Shown piece by piece: positions 23,847 through 40,081 of a DNA stretch of 64,000 bases. Made by a program: the position numbers and the translations under genes. Source of the stretch: an uncultured Nitrososphaerota archaeon (lineage in GTDB: Archaea > Thermoproteota > Nitrososphaeria > Nitrososphaerales > CADDZS01); contig CAWCYI010000006.1 in NCBI GenBank assembly GCA_963799845.1, positions 928,001-992,000 of the forward strand, given 5' to 3'. The stretch's first letter is position 1; each line of letters opens with the position of its first letter. Below the pieces are notes generated by a model, which saw only the letters and a program-made list of their open reading frames with translations, was not told the DNA's origin and did no database searches.

Positions 23847-23850
23847 ACTA

Positions 23851-24974
23851 ACCTGGCCGACATAAGTTCATAGACACCTGTTGGTCAGAAGGAATTTCTT
23901 CATGTCAAGATGCGAGCAAAACCTTCGCGTTCGATAGTATTCTGCCAGGATTGATTTCAGTTCTTTCAATGACGTCGGAAAGGTTGGAAGCCTTGAGAGA
24001 TCCTTCTCACCCTCGCGCCAACACTCCTCCATCATGTTGAACTCTGGCGAAGCTGTCGGGATCCATCTGACTCTGAGAGTCTTCCTGTTCTTACCCAAAT
24101 AATCAGTTACGATCCTGGTTTTGTGGTGTTGCCTTGCTTTGTCAAGGAAGAGATAGAGTGATCCAAACTTCCTGTGCACCTTCTTCAGGTAGTCGAGGAA
24201 TGTCTCGCCATTGAATTTCTCGTACTGCCTGAAGATTTGTGTCCCGTCCAGGCTGATCGCTCCAAACACCACGGTGTTGCCGTGCGAGCCTGACACAATC
24301 CGAATCGGTCGAATCCCTTTGACCGCCCACACCCTTTTGGTTTCTATGTTCTGGACGAAGATTGATTCGTCTTCGGATGCTACGGTGAAGCCTTCCGGGA
24401 TATTCCTGAGGAGTCTTGCGGTCCTTTTTTAAATTCGAGCCTCTCTTCGAGGGAAGCCTTGTGAAGTAACCTCTTGTCAGGGACAATTGCTCTCACTCCC
24501 CACTTCTGCATCAACCTGTAGATGTGTCTCTCAGTGTATGCCACGTCTGCTTCCTTGCGGATCATCTCCCTGACCTCCTTCACGGTCCAGCCGCATTCGT
24601 TCTTCACGACCTTCCTCTTCACCGCAATGAACTTGTTGTGATCGAGCTTCGGAGGTCTCCCGCTCCTTTCCATCGTCTTGAGTCCTTCTAGCCCATCTTT
24701 CTCGAAACGTCTAAGCCACGGTGTCGTCCATGATTTGTGCCGGTGAACTTCCCTTGCTACGTGCGACGCCGGGACACCCTCGTACTTGACCTTCAGAACG
24801 AGGAATATCCTCTTGCTTACGTTTGCGTCCCTCTCCTCTCTATAAGCCTCTTCAACAATCTCCTTCGGTGCCTGTAATCGAGACATACAACCTGAGATAG
24901 GAAGGGAAGTTGGCCAAAAATGAGAATGTCTAGGTCTGTGGCCCTTTCAGTCTAATAATTTATGTCGGCCAGGT
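23851..24974 (-). mobile_element. IS630-family element, copy 1
   Basis: IR ACCTGGCCGACATAA, TA duplication; matches 38843-39966. Confidence 0.95.
23868..24886 (-). CDS. IS630 transposase (two ORFs, probable programmed frameshift)
   Basis: HTH ORF 24380-24886 plus DDE ORF; TTTAAAAAAG slippery site is present in both copies. Confidence 0.9.
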
Positions 24975-25435
24975 TAAATTCTCCCCTTAAGATAAATCTC
25001 GAAATATCTCTCTGTAGCACGCAGATATTTCGGTTCAAATTGTTGAACGAGTTTTTGTATTGGCAAAGTGCGAGCGTTTTTTATTTTCCAATAATATTCG
25101 GCAACATACCTAAGAAAGAATTCGTAATTGGGTTCAGAATCAAATTGCTGAATGGTTTTCATCAATTCTAAAATTGTTTCTTCCGTCTTGAATTCATTCT
25201 CATTAAGGTTAGGATTATGTTTCACAATTTTCTTTGAAAGCGAGTCTGCTCTTTCTCTAAGGGTATTTTCCTCAGTTATCGTATTACTGATTGGAGAATC
25301 TCCGAGTTTTGAAAATCTCTTCCTTCGTTGTCTCATTCGCATTCTAGACGCAATTTTATCTTCAAATTGATAATCAGGATTCCTCTTACGGTATTTTTTC
25401 ATGTAGTCTTTCATTCGTTCCTTACTAAGTGGCAT
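24974..25435 (-). CDS. Basic helical protein (orfA) co-transcribed with the integrase
   Basis: MPLSKERMKDYMKKYRKRNP; with IS630 removed its TAG lies 1 nt before the integrase ATG. Confidence 0.75.
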   Translation of the reverse strand: MPLSKERMKDYMKKYRKRNPDYQFEDKIASRMRMRQRRKRFSKLGDSPISNTITEENTLRERADSLSKKIVKHNPNLNENEFKTEETILELMKTIQQFDSEPNYEFFLRYVAEYYWKIKNARTLPIQKLVQQFEPKYLRATERYFEIYLKGRI

Positions 25436-31682: not shown

Positions 31683-32912
31683 TCAAGTCACTCCTGTCTG
31701 CCTGCTATTTTCCTTTTTTCTCCGATTGTGACGGCCAAGCATGCGATCAAGATTCGTTGAGTACTGCTCCAGTACGCTAACGTCCGATGAAAGGCTTTTG
31801 GCTAGCTCTGGAACGCTCTCTGGTAGTATCGCGTCTTTGATGACTCTTTGAGCATTGAAGGATGTTTGCCTCATCTTCTTCGCTGTCAGATACTTGTCCT
31901 CCTCGACGTACCTCTGCTTGAATGTAAGCATCTTCCAGACAATGCAGGCGAGTTTCCTTGCAGCATCAACCTGAGCCTCCTGAGGAGCTTTCCCCCTCTT
32001 GATGTGCTTCAGGTAGACTCTTTTGACAGCAGAATCCGTCTTGGCTTTCACGGCTCCACTCACTGCGCATGTTAGAGCGTACTTCAATATGACGTCGCCG
32101 TGCTTTACGTGTTCGTGGTGGGACTCACGCTCTCCACTGTTGTCAGCACCTGGAACGACTCCGGCATACGAGCAGAGATGTTTCTTTGTGGGGAACCTTG
32201 AAGCGTCTCCTATTCTTGCCTTGATGGCTACTGCGGTGAAAGCATTGATGCCAGGGTGACTGAACAGAAGCTGGCAGTCTTCGTCTGAGGCTGCCATCTT
32301 TGCAATCTCGGTCTCAACCTCCGTATGCTGGGTTGCATAGAACTTGAGCTCCGAAAGATGCAATGCGAGAGCCAGCCTGTCTTGCTTTGGAAGCTCTATC
32401 TCTCCGAGCTTTTGAAGACCTCCGTTACTGAACACGTCAGAGAATTCTGAGAACTCGCTCTGGACCATGTTTCTCTCCAGTAGAGCTTGGATCTGGTTCT
32501 TTACTCTCGATATCTTTGCGCCAATCTCTATCTGTTGGGTCACAAGAAAGCGCATGTCTTCTATGTACTGTGAGGGAACGTAGCACCTTCTCAAGTAGCC
32601 CAGTGCATCCTCCTTGACGATACGCTCGCAGTCTCTCTTATCGGTTTTCACAGATGCTTTCTTCTCTGGTGGCGCAACCATGTGAATCACGTGCTGGTTT
32701 GATGCGAAAGAAGAAATCATTCTCGTGACCGCCTTTCCAGTTGTGCTAGATTCGATGACAAATACAGATTTGTCCGGAATCTTTGCTAGCATCTCAGAGA
32801 CTCCTGCCCTGCTCGTCTTGAAGACGAAGGATTGTATGGGTGACTCTTCTCCGTCCGCGAAGACCTGCGTGGTGCAGCTCTTCTTATGTGCGTCTATTCC
32901 GACTCTCGTCAT
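31683..32912 (-). CDS. IS110 recombinase (DEDD)
   Basis: VGIDAHK, VIESS, KTDKRDC, SG motif. Confidence 0.95.
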   Translation of the reverse strand: MTRVGIDAHKKSCTTQVFADGEESPIQSFVFKTSRAGVSEMLAKIPDKSVFVIESSTTGKAVTRMISSFASNQHVIHMVAPPEKKASVKTDKRDCERIVKEDALGYLRRCYVPSQYIEDMRFLVTQQIEIGAKISRVKNQIQALLERNMVQSEFSEFSDVFSNGGLQKLGEIELPKQDRLALALHLSELKFYATQHTEVETEIAKMAASDEDCQLLFSHPGINAFTAVAIKARIGDASRFPTKKHLCSYAGVVPGADNSGERESHHEHVKHGDVILKYALTCAVSGAVKAKTDSAVKRVYLKHIKRGKAPQEAQVDAARKLACIVWKMLTFKQRYVEEDKYLTAKKMRQTSFNAQRVIKDAILPESVPELAKSLSSDVSVLEQYSTNLDRMLGRHNRRKKENSRQTGVT

Positions 32913-33327: not shown

Positions 33328-33385
33328 CGTGCGGGGGTCCCACATTCCGCGCCCGGAATCTTATCCTTTTGTGATTATTTACTAG
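33328..33385 (-). repeat. Repeat copy, palindrome split by IS110 type B
   Basis: CGTGCGGGGGTCCCACATTCCGCGC...ATTTACTAG. Confidence 0.85.
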
Positions 33386-33433
33386 GTGACATGATCGACA
33401 GAGTTAACGGAAGGTAAAGCCACAGCCAAGCAC

Positions 33434-34414
33434 ATGTACGCAGCTATAGATCTTCATCAAAGAACCGTCCAGCTGAGTACTCAAGGACGAAAGAGGACAG
33501 ATTGCAGGTGAGACGAAAATTGGCAAGGATGCAAGGAGCATACTCGAGTTTCTCGATGGCACTGACGCCAGAGTAGTCATGGAATCGGGCTACAACCATG
33601 AACACATCTACGATCTCCTCAAAGAAGAGGGATACGATGTTAAGGTAGCTCATCCGCTGTTGGTTAAGGCGATCGCCTACGCAAAGGTGAAAAATGACAA
33701 GGTGGACGCAAGGATGCTCGCAGATTTATTGAGACTAGACATGATTCCAGAGTGCTACATTCCAAGGAAAGAGACGAGAGAACTAAGAGACCTCGCAAGG
33801 AGGAGGCACTATTTCGTCTCGACAAGAACCACGTTCAAAAACAAAATCCATGCTGAGCTCAGCAGGAGATGGATTGATTACAGCAAAACAGATCTCTTCA
33901 CGCAGGTCGGAAGAGACCATCTAAAATCCCTTCATATTGCAGCAGTAGATGACTATCTCGACTCGATAGAGTTCCTAGATGCGAAAATAAAGGAGCTTGA
34001 CAGCCAAATCAAGGAACAGGCTCTTCAAGACAAGTACGCAAAACTACTTGTGACGGTGCCTGGAATATCTTACTACGGAGCTCTGCTAATCTCGAGCGAG
34101 ATTGCAGGACATCAATAGATTCCCAGATGCCGAACACTTGTGCTCGTACGCAAAATTAGCTCCTGGAACACACCAATCGGGAGAGACTCAATTCCAGAAA
34201 CCAGATCGAAAAGGAAATCGCATGCTCAACTGGATAATGATCCAGTGCGCACACATCCACGTCCTAAACTGCAATTCATCTATAACCAGGCATTACAACA
34301 AAATCAAGGAGACAAAAGGAGCAAAGATCGCTATCGTCGCAGCGGCGAGAAAGCTCGACGTGCGCAATCTACATGATGCTGAAGGAAGAAAGAGCCTTCA
34401 GGCTGGACGGCTAA
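33434..34414 (+). CDS. IS110 recombinase B (several apparent frameshifts)
   Basis: MYAAIDLH, VMESG, KNDKVDA, TVPGIS, CSYAKLAPGTHQSG, AARKL. Confidence 0.85.
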
Positions 34415-34419
34415 ACCAT

Positions 34420-34570
34420 AGACTGGGCTCGAGAATTTACTGCATCGCCAGGATGCGTTTACTAGGATGAGCCAAAGGCAATAAGCGAAAGCCACAATGT
34501 TCCATTTGGGAACGAATGGGAGTATGCTCGTCCAGCATAGGAATGGATATTAGGTGATAGAGCCCAGCCG
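34420..34570 (+). ncRNA. Putative bridge/seek RNA of IS110 type B
   Basis: GGCTC-[GAATTTACT]-GCATC..GATGC-[TTTACTAG]-GAGCC loop; second loop contains ATGGGAG. Confidence 0.78.
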
Positions 34571-34577
34571 ACATGGG

Positions 34578-34647
34578 AGTAAATTCGTGCGGGGGTCCCA
34601 CATTGGGCACACGGAATTATCCGTTCTTTGGAATTTACTAGTAAAAT
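34578..34647 (-). repeat. Repeat copy
   Basis: AGTAAATTCGTGCGGGGGTCCCACATT...AATTTACTAGTAAAAT. Confidence 0.85.
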
Positions 34648-34727: not shown

Positions 34728-37700
34728 TCACCAACGTATTGGAGTCTGCGAAGGACTCGGCTGAGGTAATCCTAACCGCCTGATGAACGAATCCCATCTT
34801 CGATCCTCCCGCACGGGAGCAAACAACGGTAATAATCTAAGGTCCAAAAGGTAGCTTCCATGCTGCGTAAAAAGGGAGTGATCTTCCCGCGCCTCTTCGA
34901 GAAGACGGAAGCCTTCGTCTTTCTTTCCTAGCGAAAAGTATACCTGCGCTATCTTCATTTTAGAGATATATTCGCCCTTGGAGCTCTCTTCGAGCTCTCT
35001 GAGAATTTTACTAGCTTCCTCTCTTTGACCCACAAACCCTAGTGCAATAGCCAGATCGGCCTTCCATATCGGATCACCCCCAGACATTGTCACCGCCTTT
35101 CGAAATTCACTGATCCCTTCCTCCGTTCTGGAATCACAATAGTACGCCCAGCCAAGAGCGCTGTGATTAGGTGGATATTCAGGATCTACCTTTAGTGCAG
35201 TTTCAAGCTGTTCCACGGCCTCGCCAGGTCTACCAGCGTAAAAAGGAACTGCGGCCAGATTCAAGTTTCCAGGGCGAAGGAGCGGATCAAGTTCGACTGC
35301 CAACTTTATCTGTTCTCGGGCCTCTTCAAATCTTGTAAGAAAACCGAGCAACAGTCCATACCACATATGGGCTTTAGCGTAGCTTGGCTTGAGTTCGAGA
35401 GCGATTTTGTATTCAGCTTCAGATTCCTTCCACTTGCCTTCGTAATCGTTGAATACATCTGCGAGTGTAGTATGCGGCTCAGCCAGCCTTGGATCTATTT
35501 CTATGGATTTTAGCGCGTATTGTTTAGCCTTCGGAAATGAATCTTCCGGTTTCATCCAGGTGCGAGAACCATAAAGTATGTAGCAATCTGCTAGTCCGGA
35601 ATAAGCTAGTGCATATTTGGAGTCCAACTTGGCTGCCTCCTCGAAGTATCTTACCCCTTTATCCGTACTTTCTCTTGTTCTCTCCTCCCAGAAGTAACGT
35701 CCTCTTAGGTAGAGCATGTAGGCTTGTGTGTTTCCAGTTGCCCTCATTTCTAGATCCCTTTTTTCGACTGATAGCAACTGGACCGTCAAAGCCTGGGAGA
35801 CGTTCATGGCAATCTCTTTCTGTACTCCGAAGACGCTATCCAGCTTCCTATCATAGTCCTGGGACCACAGATGTTCATCGCTACGGGTGTCAATCAGTTG
35901 CACAGTTATTCTTAAGTTGTCGGAGTCTTTTCTCACAGTGCCTTCAAGAATACTTCCAACGTGCAGCTCCTCAGAAATTTCTTCGATATTCTTGCTGGTA
36001 GTCTTGTAGCGCATTATGGAAGTCCGAGAGATCACTTTGAGCCCTCGGATCTTGGACAGATTGGATATTATTTCATCAGTCATACCATCAGCAAAATACT
36101 CATCCCCAGAATCCGGACTGATGTTTGCAAATGGCAGGACTGCAACACGGTGAATATCAAGCTGGTCGCCGGGTTTCTTCGAATCCGGTCTGCTCTCTTC
36201 CACGGGGAGCTCTATCTTGTAAACATTTTCTTGGGCTTGGAGCCCAATTTTCTTCATGAACGCGACAAATCTCGGGTCTTTTTTCATGCCACTAAACCAT
36301 GGCCACCAGTTGAGATAGGGAATCGTGTTTGACCTTTCCTGGTAGGCTTTCTCAAGGTAAGTGAACCCTTCATCGATTCTTCCGGCACCGAAGAGAGCAT
36401 AGGCTATTAGCCCACTGTCAACATAAGAGGTGTTGGAAAGCGCAATTAGCTCTTGTACTACTTCACTTGCTTCGTCGTGCTTCCCAGAGAATCCAAGCAA
36501 ACAAGCGAGATGAGCCCTGCAATTTGGATCTTCATGGGATATTTCGACAGACTTGCGAACTGCTCTGATGGCTTCGTCTATCCGTGATGCCATGTAATAT
36601 GCCCAGCCAAGCCAAACATATGCAAAGGCATAATCTTGATTTTCTTCGATGACCTTTTCGAATTGCCTAATGGCCTCGCTGATTTTGCCATTCGCATATA
36701 ATACCTCACCCACGTTAACCCCGATTACACGTGACAGCGGGTCAAGCTCATGAGCACGCGCGATATTCGTGTATGCTTCGTCTAGTCTGCCTTGTGAACG
36801 AAGGATGAGTGATAGCCAGTGGTAAGCTGTCGCGTAGCTGGGATTAAGCTCGATAGCCCGTTTCAACTCTATCTCCCCCTCGTTCCACTTGAAATCATAA
36901 TTTGAGAGCGCTATTCCGAAGGAAGCGTGTGGTTCGGCTAATCGAGGATCCAACGAAATAGCCTGCAACGAAAACTCCTTGACTCGCAGAAACGCTTCTT
37001 TGGGAGCCAGCCATAGATAGTCGGCATAGATGATGTAGCAATCTGCCAGCGCTCCATACGCTAGCCCAAATCTAGCGTCAAGCCCAATCGCTTTTTCGAA
37101 GTATTTTACGGCCTTGTCGACTGCTTCTCTGCTTCTCTCGTTGAGGTAGTATCTTCCCTTCAGGAACAATGTGTAAGCTTCATCACTCTTCGTGGGAAGG
37201 TTATTTTCGATTTCCTTTTTTTCTTTTGAAAAGAGGTTGATCTCAAGAGCGGCAGCTACTCGCTGGGCAATCTCGCTCTGAATAGCGAAAATGTCTTCGA
37301 GCTCTTTGTCGTAGCTTTGATTCCAAAGATGTACGTCACTAATCGAATCAATGAGCTGTGTTGTAATTCTTAATTTGTTGCCCGATTTCCTCACACTCCC
37401 TTCCAGGATTTTTCCCACGTTGAGCTCTTTTCCTATTTCCGTTGCAGTTTTCTTCGAATTTTTGAACTTCATCGCAGAAGTTCTGGAAATTACGATCAGG
37501 TTTGGAATTTTTGACACCGAGGAGATCATTTCCTCGGTCATGCCGTCAGCGAAGTACTCGTCATTGGGATCCTGACTCATGTTCGCGAAGGGGAGGACTG
37601 CGATCCTATTGCTGTCGATTTTTCCCTTTGGCTCTAATCCTCTTTCATCCCAAGGGAGATCGATCTTGTACACCTCAATCGGGAGAATCTACATTCTTGA

Positions 37701-38568
37701 GTAATTTTTCTCCCAAGCTGGTAAATGTCAAATCAATCTTATTTCGCACTTGATCGTAAACCTGTCGCGTCAAACAGACACCACCACTATCTGCAAGAGG
37801 TTCAATCCTGGAAGCTACATTGACTGCATCACCAAAAATGTCCCCACCGTATTCGACGACGTCTCCAAGATGGATCCCAATCCTTAAACTGAACCTTTTA
37901 TCGACGGGCAGAACAATATTGAATTCCCTCACAGCTCTCTGAATATCATACCCACACCTCACGCCATTTAGGGCATCTGGGAACTGTACTAAAAATGCAT
38001 CCCCGATCATTTTCACTATCGTTCCTCCATGCCTTTGGAATATGGGTCGGAGCAGTTTACTGCTTTCTTGAAGTAGAGCAAGTGAAATCGACTCATCTTT
38101 TTGTCCCAGCGCCGTGAAGCCCACCATATCGGTAAACATTATTGTAGCAAGATGACGGTGACCTTGTTCTAAGATCTGTTTTTCCTGGTTCGATACTTCA
38201 TGGACTTGGGGAACTATGGCTGCTTCGATTTCTTGATCTGTGCGCTGCGATTGTATTCTTTTTTGTATCGCAGCTCTGGGATCAGAAATTCTGAACCGCA
38301 TCACTTCACCATCGCGGCCGCGCTCGCCCTCGATGTACCTCATCTCAATCAGACCATTCGTTATGAGATCTTGAAGATCCGTGCCGACCTGTCCTGGTCT
38401 TTTGCCATACAGGGTGTTGGGGACAGATCCAGTCCCCTCCGCGATCTGAACCAGACTCCTCCACCCGCATCGATCCAGCGGGATTCTCAATACCTCGTCA
38501 TCTTTCACATAGGCATCTTTCAGAAATTCAAATAGCCGCTTTGACTTTGAATCTCTGAATTCTTCCAA
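34728..38568 (-). CDS. wHTH + adenylate cyclase + two (TolB-N-like + TPR) modules, frameshift near 37675
   Basis: GWRSL..TLYG..GERGRDGEVMRFRI; TIMFTDMVG, VKMIGD, DIFGDAVNVASR; two AVLPFAN modules. Confidence 0.85.
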
Positions 38569-38842
38569 ACCGTGTTCTCTTGAAAATCACGTGTAAGGCA
38601 TAAAAAAAGTTAAGCAGAATTATCGACAGAAAAGCCCCCTTTTGATGCCGCTGCTTGAGAGAAGAGACCAGGTCGAGAACATTCTCGAAAAACTGAAGCG
38701 GTATTTCACAAAAGGCAGTTACATTTAGTTGAATTCCACAGGTTTTCGGCACAGAGCAACTCGCTGGGGATCGAATTACTTACTGCGTTGCTGAGTCTGG
38801 ATACGAACAGAGGGGTCCTGGGAGTCAGAGTTGAACGAGTTA

Positions 38843-39966
38843 ACCTGGCCGACATAAATTATTAGACTGAAAGGGCCACAGACCTAGACATTCTCATTTT
38901 TGGCCAACTTCCCTTCCTATCTCAGGTTGTATGTCTCGATTACAGGCACCGAAGGAGATTGTTGAAGAGGCTTATAGAGAGGAGAGGGACGCAAACGTAA
39001 GCAAGAGGATATTCCTCGTTCTGAAGGTCAAGTACGAGGGTGTCCCGGCGTCGCACGTAGCAAGGGAAGTTCACCGGCACAAATCATGGACGACACCGTG
39101 GCTTAGACGTTTCGAGAAAGATGGGCTAGAAGGACTCAAGACGATGGAAAGGAGCGGGAGACCTCCGAAGCTCGATCACAACAAGTTCATTGCGGTGAAG
39201 AGGAAGGTCGTGAAGAACGAATGCGGCTGGACCGTGAAGGAGGTCAGGGAGATGATCCGCAAGGAAGCAGACGTGGCATACACTGAGAGACACATCTACA
39301 GGTTGATGCAGAAGTGGGGAGTGAGAGCAATTGTCCCTGACAAGAGGTTACTTCACAAGGCTTCCCTCGAAGAGAGGCTCGAATTTAAAAAAGGACCGCA
39401 AGACTCCTCAGGAATATCCCGGAAGGCTTCACCGTAGCATCCGAAGACGAATCAATCTTCGTCCAGAACATAGAAACCAAAAGGGTGTGGGCGGTCAAAG
39501 GGATTCGACCGATTCGGATTGTGTCAGGCTCGCACGGCAACACCGTGGTGTTTGGAGCGATCAGCCTGGACGGGACACAAATCTTCAGGCAGTACGAGAA
39601 ATTCAATGGCGAGACATTCCTCGACTACCTGAAGAAGGTGCACAGGAAGTTTGGATCACTCTATCTCTTCCTTGACAAAGCAAGGCAACACCACAAAACC
39701 AGGATCGTAACTGATTATTTGGGTAAGAACAGGAAGACTCTCAGAGTCAGATGGATCCCGACAGCTTCGCCAGAGTTCAACATGATGGAGGAGTGTTGGC
39801 GCGAGGGTGAGAAGGATCTCTCAAGGCTTCCAACCTTTCCGACGTCATTGAAAGAACTGAAATCAATCCTGGCAGAATACTATCGAACGCGAAGGTTTTG
39901 CTCGCATCTTGACATGAAGAAATTCCTTCTGACCAACAGGTGTCTATGAACTTATGTCGGCCAGGT
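38843..39966 (+). mobile_element. IS630-family element, copy 2 (transposase 38931-39949)
   Basis: Same IRs, TA duplication and ORFs as copy 1. Confidence 0.95.
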
Positions 39967-39995
39967 TAGTTCGGAATCCCATCGTAATTTGGCAA

Positions 39996-40081
39996 TTTTT
40001 ACTAGTAAATCCGTGCGGGGGTCCCACATCTCGCATTCATGATTTACTAGGAAAACTCATGTACGAATCCCGTACCTCGCA
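39996..40081 (-). repeat. Two tandem repeat copies
   Basis: TTTACTAGTAAATCCGTGCGGGGGTCCCACATCTCGCA; TTTACTAGGAAAACTCATGTACGAATCCCGTACCTCGC. Confidence 0.85.

What the first reader, a model, noticed from the sequence alone, without database searches (positions are those of the whole stretch)
33328..34647. IS110 type B is RNA-programmed against the dispersed repeat and sits in its palindrome centre
The flanks rejoin as ATTTACT-AG-TAAATTCGTGCGGGGG, an intact repeat. Downstream of the recombinase, a stem-bounded loop carries GAATTTACT (34433-34441) and TTTACTAG (34458-34465) around a GCATC/GATGC hairpin, i.e. the left and right target guides for that site. A second loop carries ATGGGAG (34516-34522), matching the element's right end plus core; the other donor guide matches only partly. 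This is analogous to IS621 targeting REPs and IS1111-attC elements targeting integron sites, and it independently suggests the repeat is abundant and functional. The recombinase might also rearrange DNA at these sites (inference).
Basis: partly seen in the sequence, partly recalled or inferred. Interest (0 to 1): 0.75.

Follow-up and report, generated by a model that had tools for sequence, protein, structure and literature searches.

The report
Archaeal RNA-guided transposon targeting palindromic repeats
A small jumping gene in what is likely a soil archaeon carries a predicted guide RNA whose two guide stretches spell out a 12-base palindrome repeated about 40 times in the genome, its copies sit in that palindrome facing either way, and it is best read as a new natural example of a known RNA-guided mechanism rather than a new one.

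Summary
A 1,192-bp IS110-family element (33386-34577) lies between two AG cores inside TTTACTAGTAAA. All 4 own-genome copies have TTACT-AG on the left, and the 3 complete ones have AG-TAAA on the right. The 163-bp tail has a conserved five-helix fold with compensatory changes. Across related elements its two target guides change together with the flanks (70/75 and 87/95 positions match, against about 33 and 34 by chance). One correction: the first guide reads the right flank on the bottom strand and the second reads the left flank, the IS1111 order. About 5+2+5/6 bp is read. Unusual points: insertion in both orientations (6 vs 5), a guide frozen within one clade, and one independent second origin of the same guide. 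The repeat is a palindrome plus a tRNA-3'-like arm, probably a tyrosine-integrase att-like site. Rearrangement of the repeats by this recombinase is not supported. This copy's gene has three frameshifts; a short-read contig suggests a sister copy is intact. RNA expression is untested. The scan had already noted this repeat elsewhere in the genome and repeat-guided IS110s in other genomes. New member of a known kind.

The parts
33328..33383 (+). Left flank: type-A repeat unit (tRNA-3'-like arm) ending in TTTACT, the left half of the target palindrome; this unit lacks its own upstream palindrome
   Evidence: arm score 28.3; 99% null 10.2
33384..33385 (+). AG core, left copy (CT on the bottom strand, as in IS621)
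33386..33433 (+). Left end, 48 bp; short imperfect subterminal repeat starting 7 bp in if the core is counted; conserved AAAGCCAC motif at 33416-33423
   Evidence: AAGCC in 54 of 55 distinct left ends
33434..34414 (+). IS110-family DEDD recombinase gene, broken in this copy by +1 insertions at 33475, 34107 and 34356; codons for D6, E50, D88, D91 and S248 are present in the pieces
34402..34536 (+). Predicted bridge/seek RNA; outer helix 34402-09 with 34529-36 overlaps the last codons of the gene
   Evidence: 99.2% of cells paired, 10 of 23 pairs with compensatory change
34433..34441 (+). Target guide 1: reverse complement of core plus right flank
34442..34456 (+). Internal hairpin of the target-binding loop
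   Evidence: helix 3
34458..34467 (+). Target guide 2 (left flank plus core, 34458-65), then a handshake-like dinucleotide (GA here; GT, matching the left end, in 58 of 65 rows)
34488..34496 (+). Invariant AAAGCCAC segment; its CAC(C) is the only match to the left donor end
34516..34524 (+). Right-end donor guide plus core (34516-22), then TA, which matches the first bases of the right flank (handshake-like)
   Evidence: A/G position agrees in 52 of 54 rows; handshake base agrees in 35 of 44 pairs
34570..34579 (+). Right end with 3-bp terminal extension (GGG) and right AG core at 34578-79
34580..34645 (+). Right flank: type-A repeat unit with its own closing palindrome at 34634-34645

Best explanation
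This is an IS110-family insertion sequence of IS1111-type layout whose downstream non-coding tail is predicted to be a bridge/seek RNA that likely steers its recombinase into the palindrome of a dispersed, tRNA-tail-like repeat, in either orientation. Shown: element limits, core duplication, guide-flank covariation, conserved fold, the sites of the copies, both orientations. Inferred from IS621/ISEc11: the element circularises at its AG cores; the RNA's target loop opens the site, with the 5' guide pairing to the top strand of the right flank and the 3' guide to the bottom strand of the left flank; the donor loop holds the circle junction mainly through the right-end guide; DEDD plus Ser residues exchange strands next to the core; handshake bases favour the product. 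Because about 12 bp centred on a palindrome are read, each site offers two mirror-image entry points. The repeat is probably an att-like site of tyrosine-integrase gene modules that the element parasitises as an abundant intergenic landing pad. This copy is probably immobile by itself but could be moved in trans by an intact sister copy.
For: Guide vs flank, distinct pairs: right positions 1-6 match in 45,45,44,44,31,22 of 48 (permutation means 25.6,38.0,24.4,25.4,13.9,13.4); left positions 1-5 in 34,32,35,33,27 of 35 (11.9,11.5,13.9,18.3,19.4). One element per distinct 5-mer guide: 70/75 and 87/95, with 0 of 10,000 permutations as high. Fold: 99.2% of cells paired against 24-40% for slid controls. 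Own genome: 4 of 4 left junctions TTACT-AG and 3 of 3 right junctions AG-TAAA. Filled/empty pair: two G004 junction contigs (L009, L015) match the empty G000 site C6:900524 on both sides of the AG (20 bp by eye; 55 bp at 94.5%). Of 8 palindrome-guided insertions with both flanks scored, 5 have a repeat arm above the 95% null (4 above 99%), against 5 and 0 of 73 for other-guide elements. Guide identical in 28 of 28 pairs in the clade against 11 of 125 outside pairs at 80-95% protein identity. L036 carries the same guide in another clade (AU test p=3.5e-48) and sits at a palindrome plus T-loop-like arm. NF033542 score 214 against cut-off 140.
Against: No RNA data were obtained and no circle junction appeared in the contigs laid. 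Related elements are not independent, so the permutation and pair counts overstate significance. The left donor guide is only 3-4 invariant bases without a core match, so donor recognition is not fully explained. Not every palindrome-guided insertion has a detectable arm: L019 has none, L017 and L018 score below threshold (short contigs; arm seen by eye only), and 10 of 13 one-sided cases score below threshold. The subterminal repeats are much shorter than typical IS1111. All 4 copies are broken as assembled.
Confidence: 0.88

Rival explanations
1. The recombinase is also the engine of the repeat arrays: it recombines repeat with repeat (target-target) at the AG core and so shuffles the gene modules between them.
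For: 48 of 57 target sites lie within 100 bp of a repeat unit, and modules between units are shared between arrays. The type-A/type-A tandem rebuilt by rejoining the flanks here is not seen among the 11 other tandem pairs, which could reflect a rearrangement. A symmetric target could in principle be engaged differently from IS621's.
Against: [quoted passage not shown] Arrays are co-oriented in 40 of 45 neighbours, whereas a palindromic core would be expected to give inversions. The one clean breakpoint (C4:1371961 vs C7:22186, 99.2% over 384 bp) ends at +29, in the tRNA-like arm (n=1). A tyrosine-recombinase-like ORF starts about 100 bp after the start of the last unit of a C4 array. G011 has the repeat while its related IS carries other guides.
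Confidence: 0.06
2. The element recognises only the 12-bp palindrome as such (for example a host-protein binding site or any symmetric site), and the link to the tRNA-like repeat is incidental because that is where most such palindromes are.
For: Covariation stops at about 5+2+5/6 bp and does not reach the arm. Some insertions lack an arm (L019). Insertions occur at both leading and trailing palindromes of units.
Against: Compatible with the best explanation on mechanism; it differs only on why the guide is kept. Stasis in one clade and a second origin fit selection for an abundant multi-copy site, and the repeat is what makes it abundant (40 against 0.25 expected).
Confidence: 0.3
3. The matches are chance or a by-product (protein-encoded specificity; the tail is only a terminator or promoter region).
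For: No expression data. Short AT-rich motifs.
Against: Guides change with flanks while the protein barely changes (L051 vs L055 vs L052); compensatory fold; shuffle frequency about 8e-4 for both 7-mers.
Confidence: 0.02

Closest known systems
IS1111-family seekRNA elements ISEc11, ISPa11 (REP), ISKpn4 and ISPst6 (attC); Siddiquee et al. 2024, PMC11187229 (read: parts 1-2 of 9 and passages)
   Same: Non-coding region downstream of the gene; top-strand complement before bottom-strand match; 7-bp/3-bp terminal extensions; targets a multi-copy intergenic or recombination site; natural reprogramming among relatives.
   Different: Archaeal host; subterminal repeat only about 3+3 bp and imperfect instead of 11-13 bp; palindromic target entered in both orientations, whereas the paper describes these families as found in one orientation; target is a tRNA-tail-like repeat.
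IS621 / ISCro4 bridge recombinases; Durrant et al. 2024 PMC11208160 (passages), Hiraizumi et al. 2024 PMC11208158 (passages, section 9); PDB 8wt6, 9t56
   Same: DEDD plus Ser catalytic residues align; CT core on the bottom strand; target loop with two guides round a hairpin; handshake-like bases after the 3' guides.
   Different: RNA is in the right end, not the left; donor bases sit in a multi-branch loop with a 3-4-nt left guide lacking the core match; profile match only E about 1e-16.
ISPpu9 (PMC12288879, search listing only) and ISPpu10 (10.64898/2026.03.19.712850, abstract)
   Same: IS110 elements confined to a multi-copy palindromic intergenic repeat.
   Different: Bacterial REP or stem-loop targets; no tRNA-like arm; a structural gate is reported for ISPpu10 and untested here.
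ISHvo9 of Haloferax volcanii and related haloarchaeal IS110 transposases
   Same: Best named match in the plasmid collection (36% identity over the full length).
   Different: Distant; RNA and target not compared here.
tRNA-targeting integrated elements of Thaumarchaeota; Krupovic et al. 2019, PMC6563490 (passages)
   Same: att sites at tRNA 3' ends and arrays formed by re-use of a site resemble the repeat's arm (up to 20 nt identical to own tRNA-like 3' ends).
   Different: The text has 0 occurrences of 'IS110', and its single 'palindrom' hit is in a reference; no palindrome-framed dispersed family was seen in the passages read.

Membership tests
IS110 family | DEDD RuvC-like domain plus PF02371 domain with catalytic Ser | tested here: met
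IS110 family | Insertion at a short core without a longer target duplication | tested here: met
   AG core at both ends; filled/empty pair
IS110 family | Structured ncRNA with guides matching both target strands | tested here: met
   (computational)
IS110 family | RNA expressed and bound by the recombinase | not testable with these tools
   no RNA holder listed
IS110 family | Circular intermediate | tested here: inconclusive
   no joints in contigs of 4 runs; contigs drop rare forms
IS1111 group | Longer non-coding region downstream of the gene | tested here: met
   163 bp downstream against 48 bp upstream
IS1111 group | Top-strand complement precedes bottom-strand match in the RNA | tested here: met
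IS1111 group | 7-bp left and 3-bp right terminal extensions | tested here: met
   core plus 5 bp before ATG; 3 bp after CAT
IS1111 group | Subterminal inverted repeats of 11-13 bp, near perfect (7-17 bp in Durrant et al.) | tested here: not met
   only ATG/CAT plus TCG/CGA with a 1-nt offset; so it works like IS1111 but is not filed as a member
IS1111 group | Transposase falls in the IS1111 clade of ISfinder sequences | not tested
IS1111-attC group | Target is an integron attC site | not tested
   no attC model was run; by eye the units are a palindrome plus tRNA-like arm
tRNA-targeting tyrosine-integrase att sites (the repeat) | Identity to tRNA 3' end, and a tyrosine integrase beside it | tested here: inconclusive
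   13-20 nt identity in 20 of 65 units; recombinase-like ORF next to one unit, below curated cut-offs; recombination not shown

The most novel reading that the evidence does not exclude
The repeat is the recombination site of an undescribed archaeal integron-like gene-cassette system, and this IS110 lineage is its dedicated parasite, the archaeal counterpart of the IS1111-attC group. It has kept one symmetric guide over about 18% protein divergence, a second lineage has converged on the same guide, and symmetric targeting lets paired copies mobilise or invert whole cassettes.
Probability: 0.25. Interest if true: 0.7.

Novelty: new member of a known kind. Interest (0 to 1): 0.4.

Why it matters
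It gives a compact (325-aa) archaeal bridge-type recombinase family with dozens of naturally reprogrammed guides and readable target, donor and handshake positions, useful as a natural dataset and a possible tool source. A palindromic target removes the usual orientation specificity, which is a simple testable corollary of the bridge model. The frozen and convergent guide independently marks the palindrome-plus-tRNA-arm repeat as a long-lived multi-copy site in Nitrososphaerales, which is where the larger open question lies.

Tried and rejected
Rfam: one chance-level hit, E=3.4. Viral contigs: no relative by protein and no left-junction match. 401 genomes of the class: only one other genome with weak matches to the RNA region. 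Sequencing runs: no RNA holder listed; no joints in the DNA contigs; neither counts for or against. No empty allele of this exact locus in 13 family genomes. The first tree had a mis-stitched window row and long outgroups and was replaced (quick tree, SH-aLRT only). The minimum-energy fold of the single sequence pairs guide 2 away; the alignment-based fold was preferred. The idea that the left-end AAAGCCAC is a distal donor site read by the identical RNA segment was considered: same-strand geometry and no covariation; left unexplained. The idea that the IS creates the palindromes was rejected: the repeat occurs in G011, whose related IS has other guides. Literature: 7 searches listed no paper on an archaeal IS110 targeting tRNA-like or att repeats; the library is incomplete, and supplements (e.g. 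the IS110 tables of Durrant et al.) were not read and may list this family.

Full report
Observation. The element runs from 33386 to 34577 between two AG dinucleotides (33384-85, 34578-79). Removing it with one AG rejoins TTTACT-AG-TAAATTC. The gene (33434-34414) is an IS110-family DEDD recombinase, and its D6, E50, D88, D91 and S248 line up with the IS621 catalytic residues. It carries three +1 insertions against an intact relative. The one at 34107 is also in short-read contigs of three runs (one of them covering it only about 10 bases from its end); the one at 33475 is absent from a 99.6%-identical contig. So at least one break is probably real.

Copies. The genome holds four copies: this one, C6:903707, C4:1954613 (split by an intron-like insert) and a truncated one on C1. 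All four left junctions are TTACT-AG and all three right junctions AG-TAAA. Copies 2 and 3 share a single-base deletion in an A run, which an otherwise identical 857-nt short-read contig does not have; that copy type is therefore probably intact. In a same-genus genome two junction contigs (L009, L015) match both sides of a site that is empty in this genome (C6:900524), with the junction at the AG. That the two contigs belong to one insertion is inferred.

Relatives and covariation. Searches gave 80 metagenome and 17 genome loci, plus 16 loci. The named records are mostly Nitrososphaerales/Nitrososphaerota MAGs, so the host is probably a soil archaeon of that group. Loci under 55% identity, loci without ends, duplicates, L049 (parse shifted) and, for the right-hand test, six elements whose first guide did not parse (L044-46, L052, L054, L061) were left out. 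In five of those six the guide is read by eye as GGGGG against a flank starting CCCC (for L044 from its near-identical sisters). In what remained, guide 1 equals the reverse complement of core plus right flank at positions 1-6 in 45, 45, 44, 44, 31 and 22 of 48 pairs, and guide 2 equals left flank plus core at positions 1-5 in 34, 32, 35, 33 and 27 of 35. Further positions are at chance level. With one element per distinct 5-mer guide the totals are 70/75 and 87/95, against permutation means of 32.6 and 33.7. So the first guide reads the right flank and the second the left, the order reported for IS1111 seekRNAs (PMC11187229). The right-end donor guide agrees with the element end at its one variable base in 52 of 54 rows (not de-duplicated). 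The base after that guide's core matches the first base of the right flank in 35 of 44 pairs, as expected of the handshake guide (PMC11208158); this is weak because it largely follows clades, and L022 and L036 break it. The left donor guide is only an invariant CAC(C) followed by AA, AG or GA instead of the core.

RNA fold. On 45 of 48 non-redundant tails (three with long inserts left out), a five-helix multi-branch structure pairs in 99.2% of cells, with changes on both sides in 10 of 23 pairs; slid controls pair in 24-40%. Helix 4 has no compensatory change. The structure was drawn from the window's sequence, which favours it over the slid controls. RNAalifold independently finds helices 1, 2, 3 and 5. 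Durrant et al. describe donor bases in a multi-loop for many IS1111 orthologues. Rfam has no matching family. Expression could not be tested.

The target repeat. TTTACTAGTAAA occurs 40 times against 0.25 expected under an order-5 Markov model. 64 units score E<0.05 on a profile built from this genome, 48 of 57 target sites lie within 100 bp of a unit, and neighbouring units are co-oriented in 40 of 45 cases. A unit is the palindrome plus a 26-33-bp arm like a tRNA T-arm and acceptor strand; 20 of 65 units share 13-20 nt with five tRNA-like 3' ends of the genome. A tyrosine-recombinase-like ORF starts just after the last unit of one array (NF040815 E=5.5e-11 but far below its cut-off, and no Pfam hit). 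The repeat is also in 6 of 12 family genomes. I read it as an att-like site, as earlier scan notes did; recombination at it is not shown.

Is the guide aimed at the repeat? Of 8 palindrome-guided insertions with both flanks scored, 5 have an arm above the 95% null and 4 above the 99% null; of 73 other-guide elements, 5 and 0. L017 and L018 show T-loop-like arms by eye on short contigs; L019 shows none. Among 13 rows with one or no parsed flank, only L042 and L085 pass; L013 has an evident arm; the rest are uninformative or negative. Orientation relative to the arm is the same in 6 events (window, copy 3, L013, L017, L020, L036) and opposite in 5 (copy 2, L009/L015, L018, L042, L085); L009, L013, L017 and L018 were called by eye. 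This follows from a palindromic site and departs from the single orientation described for these families. In the tree of 54 transposases the palindrome-guided elements form a clade of 10 (SH-aLRT 99). Their 5+4-nt guide is identical in 28 of 28 pairs among the 8 with parsed guides, against 11 of 125 outside pairs at 80-95% identity. L036, 65% identical and sister to an element with other guides, carries the same guide on its own clade's scaffold; holding it with the clade is rejected (p-AU 3.5e-48; the group was defined by guide sequence but after the first tree had been seen). Pairs are not independent, so these counts describe rather than test.

Mechanism and rivals. The best reading is ordinary bridge/seek-RNA transposition into an abundant intergenic site (steps inferred from IS621 and ISEc11). 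One point in its favour remains: the A-A tandem rebuilt here is not among the 11 other tandem pairs, and no empty allele of this locus was found. L042, whose left flank mismatches the guide at two of five bases, may be an imperfect-match insertion of the kind described in 10.64898/2026.08.31.748434 (abstract only).

Verdict. A real and well-supported new member of the RNA-guided IS110 family that works like IS1111 but lacks its long subterminal repeats. Repeat-targeting IS110s are published, and the scan has noted several in other genomes. What is distinctive is the symmetric target, the frozen and convergent guide, and the unexplained tRNA-like repeat. Interest 0.4.

Noticed in passing
window 33416-33424 and 34488-34496: The same AAAGCCAC motif is conserved both in the left end, about 10 nt before the start codon (AAGCC in 54 of 55 distinct left ends), and in the RNA of all 45 aligned relatives. 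It does not covary between the two places. Possibly a protein-binding mimic for autoregulation; unexplained.
   Followed up: partly
G000:C4:1954936-1956883: A 1.9-kb insert with group II intron-like ends (likeness recalled, not tested) splits copy 3 right after the D91 codon; contigs with and without it occur in the runs.
   Followed up: no
window 31683-32912 (-): A second, unrelated IS110 (409 aa) with four copies at 99.5% or more identity; its junctions carry GAATCC-like and GATT-like half sites, suggesting another near-palindromic target.
   Followed up: partly
window 38841-39968 and 23849-24976: Two copies of an element with HTH and DDE_3 ORFs (IS630-like by recall) and 27-bp terminal repeats; one ends 30 bp before the repeat unit at 39998.
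   Followed up: no
L118:2775-4055 (G000:C4), L119:3084-4268, L121:1441-2421: A group of divergent tyrosine-recombinase-like ORFs that Pfam misses or barely hits; one directly follows a repeat unit, another lies between a tRNA-like gene and a repeat unit.
   Followed up: partly
G000:C7:11985 and C8:4634: A 900-bp window around a repeat unit is 99.9% identical on two contigs: recent duplication or assembly overlap.
   Followed up: no
window 34728-38568 (-): Adjacent adenylate/guanylate cyclase-domain ORF and a 981-aa TPR protein, one base apart, possibly one split gene.
   Followed up: no
L045, L046, L052, L054: Relatives whose first guide ends in CA rather than CT yet match a CCCC(C) flank, so the second core base need not pair.
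   Followed up: no
L131:487-560: A right-end-only remnant of the element, with a variant terminus, still joined to a type-A unit in a same-genus genome.
   Followed up: partly
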